DNA from: a virus
Lineage: Duplodnaviria > Caudoviricetes
Virus record (IMG/VR): IMGVR_UViG_3300048577_000431
Location: 1-33,033 of that record
Direction: 5' to 3' (one strand)
Length of the DNA stretch: 33,033 nucleotides
The notes under the pieces were generated by a model. That model did no database searches. It had not been told where the DNA came from and saw only the letters and a program-made list of their open reading frames with translations. This document shows positions 11,348 through 32,208 of the stretch, piece after piece; position 1 is the first letter of the stretch; each line of letters starts with the position of its first letter. The translations under genes were made by a program, and so were the position numbers.

Positions 11348-12990
11348 GCCGCAAGCATCGGAATTACCAGAACTGGGGACCGGGCACCAAGACCGATAAG
11401 GTCGCGGAAGGGCTCGCCGACCGGCCCGAGGTGAACCTCGCGGGCGGCGACCACTTCGCCACCCGCGCCCGCGCCAACGACTTCGTGCGCCTCATGCGCA
11501 CGCTCCCCGACCCCGATCCGGTCCTCAAGAAGATGGGCCGGGGCATCACCGCCCTGCAGGAGCTTCTGACCGATAGCCACCTGGAAAGCGTGTGGAGCGT
11601 CCGCTGTTCGGCCGCCTCCGGCGCCGAGTGGTTCATGGCCGCCGGGGCAGACGGCAAGCGCGAGCAGGAGGCCGCCGACGCCTTCGCCGAGCAGCTCTCC
11701 GCCCTGGACGTTCCGCTCATCATCGAGGAGATGATGAACGCCGTCGCCTACGGCTATTCGCCGCTGGAGGTGCTCTGGGAACTGGACGGCGCCCGCTGGG
11801 GAATCGGCGGCATCGTCGGCAAGCCGCCGCAGTGGTTCGAGTTCGACCAGGACAACCGCCTGGTGTTCCGCACCGGCGCCGTGGGCATCGAGGAGATCCC
11901 GGAGAACCGCTTCCTCCTCGTGCGCCATCGCCCGAGCTACGCCAACCCCTACGGGGACAAGGTGTTCTCCAAGTGCTTCTGGCCGGTGACCTTCAAGAAG
12001 AACGGCTTCCGCTGGTGGACCGTGTTCGTGGAGAAGTACGGCGGCGCGTTCATGTACGGCAAGTACCCGAACAACGCCGGGGAAGAATACAAGGCCGAGC
12101 TGCTCGGCGCCCTGGAGAAGATGATATCCGACGCGGTCGCCATAGCGCCCGAAGGCGCGGACATCACCATCGAGGCCCTGGCCAACAAGGGCAGCGTGTC
12201 CAGCGTGCACGCCGAGTACATCGCCATGGCGAACGCCGAGATTTCCAAGGCCGTCCTCGGCCAGACCCTGACCACCGAGATCGGCGACAAGGGCAGCTAC
12301 GCCGCGTCCAAGACCCACAACATGGTCCGCGAGGATCTGGCCGCCGCCGACCGCCGCCGGATCGCGGCCGCCTTCAATCGGCTGGCCTCGGTCTTCACGT
12401 TCTACAACTTCGGCGCCGAGGTGGTCCCCCCGGTCTTCTCCTTCGTGAAGGACGAAGACCTCCAGCCCGCCCGCGCCAAGCGCGACGTGGACCTCTACTC
12501 CATCGGCTGGCGACCGAAGAAGAGCTACATCGCCCGCGAGTACGGGATACCCGAAGACGACTTCGACCTGGCGAGCGCCCAGCCCGCCGGATTCAAGCGC
12601 GCCGCATCGGCGCTGATACCCGAGCGCGAGCACCCGGAGGACTGTTCCTGCGGATGCCGCGACGACGCGGACGAGCGCCGACCGGCCAAGAAGAGCCCCG
12701 GCCTGTTCGCCCGGCTCGCCTCCCTGTTCTCCAAGACCAAGGAGGACAAGGAGCGGGAGAAAGACGACCGACTCGTCGGCGACTTCGAGAAGTCGGCGAT
12801 GAAGGCGGCCCAGGAGGAAACGGATGAAGCCGTCGACGCCCTTATCGGGGCCGCAGGCTCGGCGGAGACTTTTGAAGATGCGCTTGCGGCTATTACGACT
12901 GCGTATGGTCGCCGCTCTCCTGCGCGGTGCGCGGCTCTGCTTGACGAGGTTCGATATGCGGCAAGCCAGGTAGGTGCCCGCCGTGGCTGA
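11344..12990 (+). CDS. Portal protein (Mu gp29/DUF935-like)
   Basis: AYGYSPLEVLW, WTVFVEKYG...GKY, ISKAVLGQTLTT...GSYAASKTH. Confidence 0.92.
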   Translation: MSRKHRNYQNWGPGTKTDKVAEGLADRPEVNLAGGDHFATRARANDFVRLMRTLPDPDPVLKKMGRGITALQELLTDSHLESVWSVRCSAASGAEWFMAAGADGKREQEAADAFAEQLSALDVPLIIEEMMNAVAYGYSPLEVLWELDGARWGIGGIVGKPPQWFEFDQDNRLVFRTGAVGIEEIPENRFLLVRHRPSYANPYGDKVFSKCFWPVTFKKNGFRWWTVFVEKYGGAFMYGKYPNNAGEEYKAELLGALEKMISDAVAIAPEGADITIEALANKGSVSSVHAEYIAMANAEISKAVLGQTLTTEIGDKGSYAASKTHNMVREDLAAADRRRIAAAFNRLASVFTFYNFGAEVVPPVFSFVKDEDLQPARAKRDVDLYSIGWRPKKSYIAREYGIPEDDFDLASAQPAGFKRAASALIPEREHPEDCSCGCRDDADERRPAKKSPGLFARLASLFSKTKEDKEREKDDRLVGDFEKSAMKAAQEETDEAVDALIGAAGSAETFEDALAAITTAYGRRSPARCAALLDEVRYAASQVGARRG

Positions 12991-29412: not shown

Positions 29413-30606
29413 ATGCTGCAGAAACTGATACAGGACAACTTGACCGACGCCGATGCCGGGCTTTTTTCCGGCATGATGGACGTACTCGTCCGTCACGACC
29501 GCATCCTCGAAAAGAAGAATCCCTACGCCTACGCCTCCAACGTGATCGTGGTTAAGTCGGGAACCGTCCTCACTATCCTCAACGCCGCGTGGAAGAGCTT
29601 CCGCCTGAGCGCCGACGTGGAGCTGACGGAGGCGAATCTCGACGCCGGAGCGGCCTTCGAGGTCGGGAAAGACTACTACGTCTATCTCGTCGACGACGGG
29701 GCTGACGGCCAGTTCATCATCAGCCTGAACACCACCTTCCCGGCTGGGCATAGCGCTGACGATAGCCGCAAGATCGGCGGCTTCCACTTCGGCTACGTCC
29801 GCAAGGTCTCTTCGGACGGCCTGTGGGTTCCCGTCGACTCCGAGGGCACCAAGTTCGGCGTCGGATCGGTCGGCTGGAAGGACAACGTGACCACCGGGAT
29901 CGTTCCGAACTCTGTGTGGGATCTCGTGAACCGTCCCAAGTGCAGCCCCGAGGGCATGGTCAAGGTCGGCCATATCTGGGTGGACATCTACATGGCCAGC
30001 GCGGCCGAGTCCATCACCCTGGAGGGCGGAACGAACGGCCTCCACGTCGCGTCTGGCCGCCTGCAGTCGAAGTATGGCCAGGTCCCGGTCTCTGGCTCGG
30101 AAGGCTTGAACTGGTACAGCTTCAACGAGCTGGCCACCCGCTCGAACAAGCGGCTCCTGTCCTACGGCGAATGGGTCAAGTCGGCCTACGGCAACCCGCA
30201 GGGCCTCGATGCCGCCGACACCTACGGGTGGACGAAGACGACCAACTCCGCGCGCACGCGCACCGGATGCCGCGTTAACGCGTCCACCGGAGAGCACGAC
30301 GCGGCCGCCGGGATCAAGCCCGCCGCCATCAGCGCGTTCAACATCGTCGACGCGGTCGGGAATCTCTACGAGTGGCTGGACGAGCTGTCCAACCGGCACG
30401 ACTCCACGGCGTTTGCCTGGCAGGATGTTCTCGGCTCCGGAAAAGGGCAGGCTTACCTCCCTAACAACGTCGGAATGGTCGCGTACATCGCTGGCGCGAA
30501 CTGGGCTGAGGGCGTCCACGCGGGTCCCCGTGCCGTCCGCGTGGACAGCTACCCGTGGTACGTGGGCGCGAACATCGGGTCGCGCCTGGCCTGTGACAAT
30601 CTGTAA
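29413..30606 (+). CDS. mtd: DGR target: Mtd-like receptor-binding protein with C-terminal C-type-lectin (FGE-like) fold
   Basis: GKDYYVYL, RKIGGFHF, SVWDLVNRP..SPEGM..VGHIWVDIY, KRLLSYGEW, AVGNLYEW and G.NW...G.R...GSRLACD parallel Bordetella BPP-1 Mtd; VR at the 3' end. Confidence 0.9.
   Translation: MLQKLIQDNLTDADAGLFSGMMDVLVRHDRILEKKNPYAYASNVIVVKSGTVLTILNAAWKSFRLSADVELTEANLDAGAAFEVGKDYYVYLVDDGADGQFIISLNTTFPAGHSADDSRKIGGFHFGYVRKVSSDGLWVPVDSEGTKFGVGSVGWKDNVTTGIVPNSVWDLVNRPKCSPEGMVKVGHIWVDIYMASAAESITLEGGTNGLHVASGRLQSKYGQVPVSGSEGLNWYSFNELATRSNKRLLSYGEWVKSAYGNPQGLDAADTYGWTKTTNSARTRTGCRVNASTGEHDAAAGIKPAAISAFNIVDAVGNLYEWLDELSNRHDSTAFAWQDVLGSGKGQAYLPNNVGMVAYIAGANWAEGVHAGPRAVRVDSYPWYVGANIGSRLACDNL
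30490..30596 (+). repeat. DGR variable repeat (VR)
   Basis: 107-nt copy of TR (offset 482) with 10 mismatches, all opposite TR adenines. Confidence 0.97.
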
Positions 30607-30626
30607 TCTGTAATCTGGAGATCTGT
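30598..30626 (+). repeat. ATCTG-core tandem repeat at IMH/target stop
   Basis: AATCTGT AATCTGT AATCTGG AGATCTGT; ATCTG at 30599, 30606, 30613 and 30621. Confidence 0.8.
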
Positions 30627-30627
30627 C

Positions 30628-30966
30628 TTGTCTGGTACACGTGGATTTGTCTTGTGGCAAAAGGCCGAGGATTTTACTGAATATCTGTTCCCGATAATCG
30701 ACCGATTCCCGAAGCATGAGAAATTTGCTCTGTGCAGTCAGATCAAAAACACGTGCTACGAGATCCTGAAGCTGATCATCCGGACGAACAAGTCGAGGCA
30801 AAAAGCTCCGGGGCTGTACGAAATCGATACCCAGCTGGAAATGCTGCGGTGGCTGATCCGACACAGCCTCCGGAGGAAATATCTCAGCCACCAAAGCTAT
30901 GAAACAGCTGCGAAGATGGTGGATGAGCTGGGCCGCATTATAGGCGGCCTACTAAAAGGAGTGTGA
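30628..30966 (+). CDS. avd: DGR accessory variability determinant (four-helix bundle)
   Basis: FPKHEKFALCSQI...L...IR......YLS...YE......ELGRIIGG; TTG start after GGAG; sits between VR and TR. Confidence 0.92.
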   Translation: MSGTRGFVLWQKAEDFTEYLFPIIDRFPKHEKFALCSQIKNTCYEILKLIIRTNKSRQKAPGLYEIDTQLEMLRWLIRHSLRRKYLSHQSYETAAKMVDELGRIIGGLLKGV

Positions 30967-30971
30967 TGCAA

Positions 30972-31078
30972 GCTGGCGCGAACTGGAATGAGGGCGTCCA
31001 CGCGGGTCCCCGTGCCGTCAACGTGAACAACTACCCGTGGAACGTGAACACGAACATCGGGTCGCGCCTGGCCTGTGA
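30972..31078 (+). repeat. DGR template repeat (TR)
   Basis: Intergenic copy of VR with 8 AAC/AAT codons and 22 adenines; lies between avd and RT. Confidence 0.97.
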
Positions 31079-31205
31079 GAATCGATTAAAACCAGACGAC
31101 ATGGCATTACGGTGCCGGTCGCAGTGACAGATTGTCAGATCATTACTCCTTGCCGTAAGGCAAAACTATGTTGGCGCCCCGCCTGCGGGCTGGGCGCTCT
31201 TTTTT
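31079..31205 (+). ncRNA. DGR spacer RNA: antisense-to-IMH segment, GNRA hairpin and terminator-like hairpin
   Basis: ACAGATTGTCA 31127-31137; TTGCC-GTAA-GGCAA 31150-31163; GC stem 31173-31198 followed by a T run. Confidence 0.65.
31173..31205 (+). terminator. Terminator-like hairpin between TR/spacer and RT
   Basis: GCGCCC-c-GCC-tgcg-GGC-t-GGGCGC then TCTTTTTT. Confidence 0.6.
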
Positions 31206-31224: not shown

Positions 31225-32208
31225 GTGTTCGAGCGGGTATACGACTACCGCAATCTCTATGAGGCGTACATCAAGGCCCGGAAGCAAAAGCGCTACCGTG
31301 GCGAAGTTCTGCAGTTCTCGTATGCCCTTGAAGAAAATCTCATCGCGCTACAGAACGAACTGATATGGAAGACGTACAAGGTCGGCGTTTATCGCCCTTT
31401 TGTGATCTACGAGCCGAAGAAAAGGCAGATCGTGGCGCTTCCTTTCCGTGACCGCGTCGTCCAGCACGCGCTGAACGCGGTCATAGAACCGATGTTCGAG
31501 CGGCGCATGATCCACGATTCCTACGCCTGCAGAGTGGGCAAGGGGACGCATCAAGCGGCCTGGCGCGTGGCTTATTTCCTGGGCAAGCCGGGGAATTACT
31601 ACTATTTGAAGGCGGACGTGAAGTCCTTTTTCGCCTCGGTAAACCGCACAATCCTCCGGTCGATCCTTGCGGAGCGAATAGAAGATGAAGGCCTCATGTG
31701 GCTTGTAGACGAGGTCCTGAACAGCACGCCGGGGACGGGGCTCCCAATCGGAAATCTTATGAGCCAGCTTTTCGCCAACGTCTACCTGCACGAGCTTGAT
31801 CACTACGTCAAGAACGTTCGAGGGGTGAAGTTTTATGTTCGCTATATGGACGATTTTCTCATTCTCCACGAAAGCAAGGCTTTTCTATGGAGCCTTCTGG
31901 CCGACATCGAGGAGCTTCTAAGGACGCGCCTAGCCCTCACGTTGAACGCGAAGACCAGGATCGGGAAAACCTCGGAGGGAATCGAGTTCGTCGGCTATCG
32001 AATATGGAGCAGGAACAAGCTCATCAAGAAGCAATCCATGGCGCCATGCGCAAGAAGGCGCGCGCATGGCGCCATGGAAAGATCAGCGACGGCCGCTTCC
32101 TGGCCTCGCTCGGCTCATGGATGGGCCACTCCGCAGACACCGCAAGTCACCAGGCCGTCGAGAAGATCATGCTGGACAGCCTGCATCATCTATATCGCAA
32201 ATCTATGA
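31225..32208 (+). CDS. DGR reverse transcriptase; frameshifted near 32044, with the thumb domain continuing in another frame to 32312
   Basis: YEPKKRQI.ALPFRDRVVQ, GKGTH, YLKADVKSFF, GLPIGNLMSQ (DGR-type GxxxSQ), RYMDD, GIEFVGY. AAGGAGG 31210-31216 favours GTG 31225 over ATG 31168. Confidence 0.95.
   Translation: MFERVYDYRNLYEAYIKARKQKRYRGEVLQFSYALEENLIALQNELIWKTYKVGVYRPFVIYEPKKRQIVALPFRDRVVQHALNAVIEPMFERRMIHDSYACRVGKGTHQAAWRVAYFLGKPGNYYYLKADVKSFFASVNRTILRSILAERIEDEGLMWLVDEVLNSTPGTGLPIGNLMSQLFANVYLHELDHYVKNVRGVKFYVRYMDDFLILHESKAFLWSLLADIEELLRTRLALTLNAKTRIGKTSEGIEFVGYRIWSRNKLIKKQSMAPCARRRAHGAMERSATAASWPRSAHGWATPQTPQVTRPSRRSCWTACIIYIANL
32035..32078. repeat. Perfect 17-bp inverted repeat at the RT frameshift
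   Basis: TCCATGGCGCCATGCGC (32035-32051), 10 nt, GCGCATGGCGCCATGGA (32062-32078). Confidence 0.9.

What the first reader, a model, noticed from the sequence alone, without database searches (positions are those of the whole stretch)
31127..31137. Spacer segment exactly antisense to the VR 3' end: candidate cis-primer that also encodes homing direction
Seen: ACAGATTGTCA (31127-31137) is the perfect 11-nt reverse complement of TGACAATCTGT at the VR end/IMH (30594-30604). Against the TR end (TGAGAATC, 31076-31083) it pairs 7 of 8 with a G:G mismatch exactly at the IMH/IMH* difference. Known: in BPP-1, cDNA is primed in cis from a spacer adenosine (Sp A56) and stays linked to the RNA. Inference: A31137, about 55 nt past TR, folds back onto the TR 3' end and primes at about 31075. 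The RNA-cDNA chimera (ACAGAUUGUCA-caggccaggcgcg...) would then be continuously complementary to VR+IMH but not to TR+IMH*, a simple base-pairing explanation for one-way homing. The same segment can form a TGACA-gat-TGTCA mini-hairpin that would mask it.
Basis: partly seen in the sequence, partly recalled or inferred. Interest (0 to 1): 0.8.

Follow-up and report, generated by a model that had tools for sequence, protein, structure and literature searches.

The report
DGR primer antisense to homing site
An 11-base piece of this phage's hypermutation element is the exact complement of the end of the gene it rewrites but mismatches its own template, and the same bias recurs in many related elements; it likely primes the mutated DNA copy and likely helps steer it to the target, as was proposed but not tested for the Bordetella phage prototype.

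Summary
Observation confirmed: 31127-31137 is the exact complement of the VR end and pairs 7 of 8 with the TR end, G:G at the first TR/VR difference (3 of 3000 shuffles reach 11). It is the counterpart of the BPP-1 cis-primer (Sp47-56). A caller that never reads VR bases returns BPP-1 A56 and window A31137, and the other BPP-1 spacer elements lie in register. The homing idea is already published as a hypothesis (Naorem 2017 Discussion). Added here: in 229 related loci, where the primer mispairs with TR at the first TR/VR difference, it pairs with VR in 147 of 159 (controls 37-45%); two relatives keep 10-11 perfect pairs through double-sided changes. Limits: the general signal covers pairs 3-5 only; the primer follows TR in 18 of 73 RT clusters (14 of 37 at 60%); 34 clusters share one sequence type. 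So pairing is likely one layer of directionality, not all of it. This RT copy is frameshifted; relatives are intact. The scan noted similar primer/target complementarity on other DNA before (three notes).

The parts
29413..30606 (+). DGR target gene, Mtd-like tail protein, VR at its 3' end
   Evidence: Pfam mtd_2nd E 3.7e-26, weak FGE-sulfatase; PHROG tail protein
30490..30604 (+). Variable repeat (VR) with GC-rich 3' stretch
   Evidence: 112-nt direct repeat, 90%; 12 mismatches at TR adenines, 1 other
30594..30604 (+). IMH-like segment, exact complement of the primer; C30597 is the first non-A difference from TR
30600..30634 (+). Tract of five TCTG units after the VR (30600, 30607, 30614, 30622, 30631); the first unit forms pairs 7-10 of the primer match; no BPP-1-type GC hairpin seen here
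30628..30966 (+). avd (start codon uncertain)
   Evidence: Pfam bAvd E 7.6e-31 for 30646-30963
30956..30967 (+). Upstream strand of the predicted cPRT-stop duplex, spanning the avd stop codon
   Evidence: duplex -17.8 kcal/mol versus -19.4 for BPP-1; register read from the sequence
30972..31083 (+). Template repeat (TR); G31075 predicted first templated base (BPP-1 G117); 31076-31083 IMH*-like template strand
31097..31121 (+). Predicted Avd-binding-type stem-loop with UACG (UNCG) tetraloop
   Evidence: double-sided changes at 5 of its 11 pairs in 8 relatives
31125..31137 (+). TGACA/TGTCA mini-hairpin, alternative to the template:primer duplex
31127..31137 (+). Predicted RNA primer strand; A31137 predicted priming base (BPP-1 Sp A56), followed by G31138 (BPP-1 G57)
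31139..31165 (+). Spacer strand of predicted cPRT stop (12 bp, one bulged U), short GTAA stem-loop, then AAAA
   Evidence: compared with Handa et al.
31173..31198 (+). 3' spacer stem-loop, likely the RT-binding element
31225..32208 (+). DGR reverse transcriptase (YMDD), frame lost near 32035-32051 in this copy
   Evidence: Pfam RVT_1; 8 relatives intact; 4 of 4 runs one base longer at 32044

Best explanation
The segment is exactly complementary to the end of the variable repeat and mismatched to the template repeat at pair 4; it is likely the RNA primer strand of a BPP-1-type diversity-generating retroelement and likely also helps the primer-linked cDNA settle on the target gene rather than on the template gene. 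Steps. (1, inferred from homology) avd-TR-spacer RNA is folded by RT-Avd so that 31130-31137 pairs with TR 31076-31083, G31138 faces G31075, and 31139-31151 pairs with the avd end. (2, inferred) A31137 primes cDNA from G31075. (3, sequence shown, function inferred) the RNA-cDNA chimera is complementary to the VR sense strand across the junction for 11 more bases, but to TR DNA for only 3 before a G:G clash and nothing past pair 8. (4, inferred) the junction-proximal pairs (1-5) are the conserved discriminator; the distal pairs are a lineage-specific extension into the first TCTG unit; a signal downstream of VR (TCTG tract here, hairpin in BPP-1) likely supplies a second layer. (5, weakest) the mini-hairpin would hold the free primer until loading or ease its hand-over from TR to VR.
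For: BPP-1 itself shows the same pattern: 9 Watson-Crick pairs with VR, TR mismatch at pair 3. VR-blind caller returns BPP-1 A56 and window A31137 with or without demanding the flanking G/G. RNAalifold on 8 relatives predicts the TR:spacer duplex in this register. G:G is native: TR has G, VR C and primer G at pair 4 in all 11 variants listed. In 229 called loci: VR 147, TR 58, neither 12, no difference 12; 147 of 159 (92%) versus 43 of 115 shuffled and 62 of 139 swapped. Where TR is unpaired and differs, VR pairs at 1.00, 0.80, 0.93 for pairs 3, 4, 5. Tree-independent pairs with a primer change at pair 3: 15 pairs, VR-only kept 8.9, TR-only 0. L084 keeps 11 of 11 (pair 6 A:U to G:C, with G:U intermediates in L005, L083, L197), L027 10 of 10 (pairs 4 and 7 changed on both sides), L165 11 of 11 (pairs 5, 6). 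In GAA-type primers the VR codon at pair 3 starts with T in all 43 cluster-codon entries; Leu is TTA/TTG in 6 of 6 although those genes use CTN 297 to TTR 94. Energies as RNA proxies: TR -6.4, VR -15.6, hairpin -2.4.
Against: Primer follows TR at the first difference in 18 of 73 clusters (70% RT identity) and 14 of 37 (60%). Beyond pair 5 VR pairing is near chance (0.29-0.49) and runs of 9 or more hold about 3 of 73 cluster weights. At pair 4 independent pairs give 3.7 VR-only versus 2.7 TR-only; at pairs 5-9 TR dominates, partly by design of the caller. 34 clusters share one type (TR C, VR T, primer A), so counts overstate independence. In the window the discriminating base is non-synonymous (GAC/GAG), so protein constraint could hold it. 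L082 breaks pair 9; L087, L208 and L089 keep TCTG at pairs 7-10 with incomplete primer pairing. In BPP-1 pair 4 of the TR duplex is described as required, whereas here it is G:G. About a third of shuffled trials pass the caller's threshold (418 of 1270). No RNA, cDNA or homing data for this element.
Confidence: 0.68

Rival explanations
1. The segment is only the primer. The TR mismatch is kept because RT needs a weak or kinked template:primer duplex; VR still matches the primer because it keeps the ancestral base under protein-coding constraint. No primer:VR pairing occurs.
For: Most discriminating sites are non-synonymous, including GAC/GAG here; one ancient type accounts for 34 clusters; BPP-1 has non-standard pairs in this duplex; general VR match is only 4-6 nt.
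Against: Leu at that codon is TTR in 6 of 6 entries against CTN-favouring usage; several different mismatch types (TR C/VR T, G/C, C/A, C/G, T/G, T/A) resolve toward VR; VR-only double-sided changes at distal pairs in L027 and L165.
Confidence: 0.2
2. VR mirrors the primer because the primer sequence is written into the VR end during integration or when a new target is born; the match is a product of homing, not a recognition step.
For: Perfect 10-11 nt matches in several lineages are what copying would give.
Against: VR departs from the primer by G:U-compatible A-to-G changes in 4 of 11 close variants and by a mismatch in L082; BPP-1 co-conversion boundary lies upstream, TR107-112; most DGRs match only 4-6 nt.
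Confidence: 0.08
3. Chance complementarity in an unrelated spacer position.
For: Only 3 positions are VR-specific in this locus.
Against: 3 of 3000 shuffles; exact register with every other BPP-1 spacer element; recovered blind.
Confidence: 0.04

Closest known systems
Bordetella phage BPP-1 DGR cis-primer, Sp47-56 with priming A56, G57, TR G117 (Naorem 2017 PMC5703328; Handa 2018 PMC6182149; Handa bioRxiv 10.1101/2023.10.23.563531)
   Same: Gene order target-avd-TR-spacer-RT; G before and G after the duplex; primer begins 3'-ACTG; TR mismatch at the first IMH/IMH* difference; cPRT-stop duplex over the avd stop with a bulged U; UNCG stem-loop upstream.
   Different: RT only 36% identical; mismatch at pair 4 (G:G) rather than pair 3 (C:U); 11 rather than 9 Watson-Crick pairs with VR; 62 rather than 73 nt from first templated base to priming base; TCTG tract in place of the GC hairpin after VR; RT frameshifted in this copy.
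Primer:IMH pairing model of homing directionality (Naorem 2017, Discussion and Fig. 6C; figure not seen)
   Different: Stated there for one element without a VR-side compensation test in the passages I read; here tested across related DGRs, which supports pairs 3-5 and shows exceptions.
BPP-1 target hairpin/cruciform with GRNA loop (Guo 2011 PMC3240598)
   Same: A VR-only signal just downstream of IMH.
   Different: Not found in the 40 nt between the target gene and avd; five TCTG units instead.

Membership tests
Diversity-generating retroelement | TR/VR pair differing at TR adenines | tested here: met
   12 A mismatches, 1 other; VRs differ among close variants at TR adenines
Diversity-generating retroelement | DGR-type RT next to TR | tested here: met
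   RVT_1, YMDD; relatives carry VR/TR pairs in 266 of 354 loci
Diversity-generating retroelement | RT reading frame intact | tested here: not met
   Frame lost near 32035-32051 in this copy; intact in 8 of 8 relatives shown and one base longer in 4 of 4 runs; mutation or assembly error
Diversity-generating retroelement | Avd accessory gene; VR at 3' end of a ligand-binding gene | tested here: met
   bAvd and mtd_2nd
BPP-1-type cis-primer (Sp47-56) | Spacer strand pairs with TR just after a G, priming base followed by G | tested here: met
BPP-1-type cis-primer (Sp47-56) | cPRT-stop duplex, short stem-loop and adenosines follow; UNCG stem-loop precedes | tested here: met
   predicted only:
BPP-1-type cis-primer (Sp47-56) | Four junction-proximal TR pairs functionally required | tested here: inconclusive
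   Pairs 1-3 Watson-Crick, pair 4 G:G; BPP-1's own pair 3 is C:U
BPP-1-type cis-primer (Sp47-56) | Covalent RNA-cDNA junction at the priming base | not testable with these tools
   only assembled contigs were available
BPP-1-type target site (IMH plus hairpin) | IMH differs from IMH* and matches the primer better | tested here: met
   11 versus 3 consecutive pairs
BPP-1-type target site (IMH plus hairpin) | GC-rich 7-10 bp hairpin with GRNA loop after VR | tested here: not met
   none in the fold of 30580-30660; TCTG tract instead
BPP-1-type target site (IMH plus hairpin) | IMH sets homing direction | not testable with these tools
   needs a homing assay

The most novel reading that the evidence does not exclude
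The DGR primer is a three-state RNA switch (self-hairpin, deliberately mismatched duplex on TR, perfect hybrid on VR). The mismatch at pairs 3-5 is a conserved, rewritable self/target code across DGRs, and in this large group a tract of TCTG units replaces the BPP-1 hairpin as second target mark, its first unit read directly by the primer. Swapping primer and IMH bases together would retarget homing.
Probability: 0.35. Interest if true: 0.75.

Novelty: new member of a known kind. Interest (0 to 1): 0.5.

Why it matters
How DGR cDNA integrates, and why only into VR, is still described as unresolved in 2026 (PMC12875486). The primer:IMH idea dates from 2017 but I found no cross-family test of it in print. 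The comparison narrows it to a testable rule (primer matches VR and mismatches TR at pairs 3-5), supplies natural compensated variants, and shows where it fails. If right, it gives a design rule for native DGR retargeting without added recombineering.

Tried and rejected
Second contact between the spacer 5' part (CAGA/CAGT motifs) and the TCTG tract: cognate -22.8 versus swapped -22.1 kcal/mol, mean rank 0.47, and no clear TCTG/CAGA versus ACTG/CAGT sorting in 57 clusters: no support. Mini-hairpin as a general DGR feature: mean stem 3.29 versus 3.07 in controls: rejected; kept only for a subset. G:G as a lesion of a decaying element: rejected, it is conserved in relatives with intact RT. Longest-match search without an anchor mostly hit chance sites and was replaced by the anchored caller. 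First caller placed the site from the VR/TR divergence point and was replaced by a VR-blind one. Rfam: two sub-threshold hits (E 0.33, 0.45), ignored. Several pair probabilities probed for the long RNA were mis-indexed and are not used. Contig runs cannot show RNA ends or junctions; no change in the primer, IMH or IMH* is listed among the rows shown, but 182 rows were not shown. A 15-nt antisense match of 31185-31199 to 12573-12587 is GC-rich and was not pursued. One search fetched the wrong end of BPP-1 and was dropped.

Full report
Observation. The 11-mer at 31127-31137 is the exact reverse complement of 30594-30604, and each occurs once in the window. TR (30972-31083) and VR (30490-30601) form a 112-nt repeat with 12 mismatches at TR adenines and one other, G31079/C30597. 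Laid antiparallel from A31137, the segment pairs with VR for 11 bases and with TR for 3, then G:G, then 4 more. Three of 3000 spacer shuffles reach 11. Only pairs 4, 9 and 10 are VR-specific, so the locus alone is modest evidence.

Context. The element is a target-avd-TR-spacer-RT DGR at the end of a Mu-like phage. The RT frame is lost near 32035-32051, where an inverted repeat is perfect in this copy and imperfect in 8 relatives with intact frames; 4 of 4 runs are one base longer there.

What is known. Naorem 2017 (PMC5703328; passages and whole Discussion read) mapped priming to Sp A56 and first template base TR G117, and wrote that the primer pairs more extensively with IMH than IMH* and that this likely explains directionality. 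Handa 2018 (PMC6182149; passages) confirmed the site and argued for 2'-OH priming. The cryo-EM preprint (10.1101/2023.10.23.563531; parts 1-4 of 5) defines the Avd-binding UNCG stem-loop, the template:primer duplex, G57, and the cPRT-stop duplex with its stem-loop and adenosines, and predicts the first and last of these in 207 of 278 DGRs; I saw no cross-DGR primer:VR analysis in the parts read, and its supplements were not seen. Unlu 2026 (PMC12875486; passages) still calls integration unresolved and favours annealing to the lagging-strand template. Guo 2011 (PMC3240598; passages) describes the downstream hairpin. I also saw single passages of PMC8632793 and 10.1101/2025.03.24.644984. Searches for a covariation test and for TCTG repeats listed none; the library lacks most subscription papers.

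Primer identity. From the BPP-1 record the primer gives 9 Watson-Crick pairs with VR and a TR mismatch at pair 3. The window matches in register: G31075, duplex from 31076, A31137, G31138, a 12-bp duplex of 31139-31151 with the avd end (-17.8 versus -19.4 kcal/mol in BPP-1), a short stem-loop and AAAA. A UACG-capped stem-loop precedes the primer. RNAalifold on 8 relatives predicts the TR duplex in this register and shows double-sided changes in the flanking stems.

Comparative test. Six scans (several returned only their best 80 of many more) plus window and BPP-1 gave 354 loci, some duplicated; 266 had a VR/TR pair and an RT, 254 were usable, 252 called and 229 passed the threshold. The caller scores TR pairing, the upstream duplex and flanking G/G; VR is used only to locate the TR end roughly, so it leans toward TR. 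It returns BPP-1 A56 and window A31137; without the G/G demand it picks the same two sites, the same site in 165 of 254 loci, and G/G appears in 53% of cluster weight. At the first TR/VR difference the primer matches VR in 147, TR in 58, neither in 12, with no difference in 12. Given a TR mismatch, VR matches in 147 of 159, against 43 of 115 for shuffled and 62 of 139 for swapped spacers. By RT cluster: 45 VR, 18 TR, 3 neither, 7 other of 73 (70%); 17, 14, 2, 4 of 37 (60%). The signal sits at pairs 3-5 (1.00, 0.80, 0.93) and falls to 0.29-0.49 beyond. On a FastTree of 139 RTs, 15 independent pairs with a primer change at pair 3 kept VR pairing alone 8.9 times and TR alone 0; pair 4 gave 3.7 versus 2.7; pairs 5-9 favoured TR. 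Many pair-3 contrasts are switches of the whole motif, and 34 clusters share one type, so independence is limited. A codon test argues against protein constraint alone (Leu TTR 6 of 6 versus 94 of 391 upstream), but the window's own site is non-synonymous.

Extended match. Among 11 close variants the G:G/C:G contrast is fixed; VR changes inside the duplex are A-to-G at pair 6 (3 variants) or pair 3 (1), all G:U-compatible, and L082 breaks pair 9. L084 and L027, which my pipeline had excluded, were examined by hand: 11 of 11 and 10 of 10 pairs with VR through double-sided changes (L027's spacing of 103 nt is outside the caller's range). L165 has 11 of 11. Others of the same primer type (L087, L208, L011, L015, L285) match VR for 3-5 bases only. 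Pairs 7-10 fall on the first of five TCTG units, a motif common after VRs with or without primer pairing.

Mini-hairpin. Weak (-2.4 kcal/mol) and not general. Among 15 clusters with AC-type primers, all 8 that carry the C[AT]GTG motif form 4-6 pairs from it, with double-sided changes in L278, L089 and L223; two of the pairs come free from the motif, and 7 clusters lack the motif. It is plausible for this subgroup and its role is untested.

Mechanism and verdict. Most likely the segment primes cDNA as in BPP-1 (my odds about 0.9), and the primer-linked cDNA then anneals to the exposed VR sense strand, where unbroken pairing across the junction allows processing while the clash on TR DNA hinders it (about 0.7). 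Because many elements show no VR bias at the first difference, a second VR-only signal is likely needed. The segment is a new member of a known kind; the value lies in comparative support, and limits, for a published but untested model. The scan reported related complementarities on other DNA; these are unchecked notes, consulted after I had formed my reading, and not counted as support. Interest 0.5.

Noticed in passing
window 30600-30634 and related loci: TCTG repeats follow the VR: 131 copies versus 13.8 expected, and 45 of 57 RT clusters have two or more TCTG/ACTG units within 60 nt, often followed by a hairpin with a GCGATAGC-like loop. One search found no paper; earlier scan notes describe similar tracts. 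Five units beside a pentameric Avd is a speculation only.
   Followed up: partly
window 32035-32078: The RT frameshift coincides with a perfect 17-nt inverted repeat that is imperfect in relatives: a quasi-palindrome made perfect, by template switching or by misassembly. Four runs lack the frameshift.
   Followed up: partly
window 531-33033: The window is a Mu-like transposable phage: transposase, transposition protein, terminase, portal, contractile tail, then DGR and a Dam-type methylase at the end. Nearest genome-resident relatives are in Spirochaetales assemblies (78% RT identity); holders are digester, landfill and wastewater metagenomes.
   Followed up: partly
L081: A 97% identical RT locus sits in an assembly labelled Woesearchaeota; probably a mis-binned phage contig.
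   Followed up: no
L180-L193: In this family the primer follows TR at pair 5 but pairs with VR over 6-11 or 12, with double-sided changes at pairs 8 and 10: a second way to favour VR that my first-difference count scores as TR.
   Followed up: partly
L107, L113, L114, L139: Chloroflexota DGRs with TR downstream of RT show 8-9 nt perfect matches between a segment 92-122 nt past TR and the VR end.
   Followed up: no
related loci: The predicted priming base is G in 132 of 196 strict calls and A in 57, so an adenosine primer seems not to be the rule.
   Followed up: no
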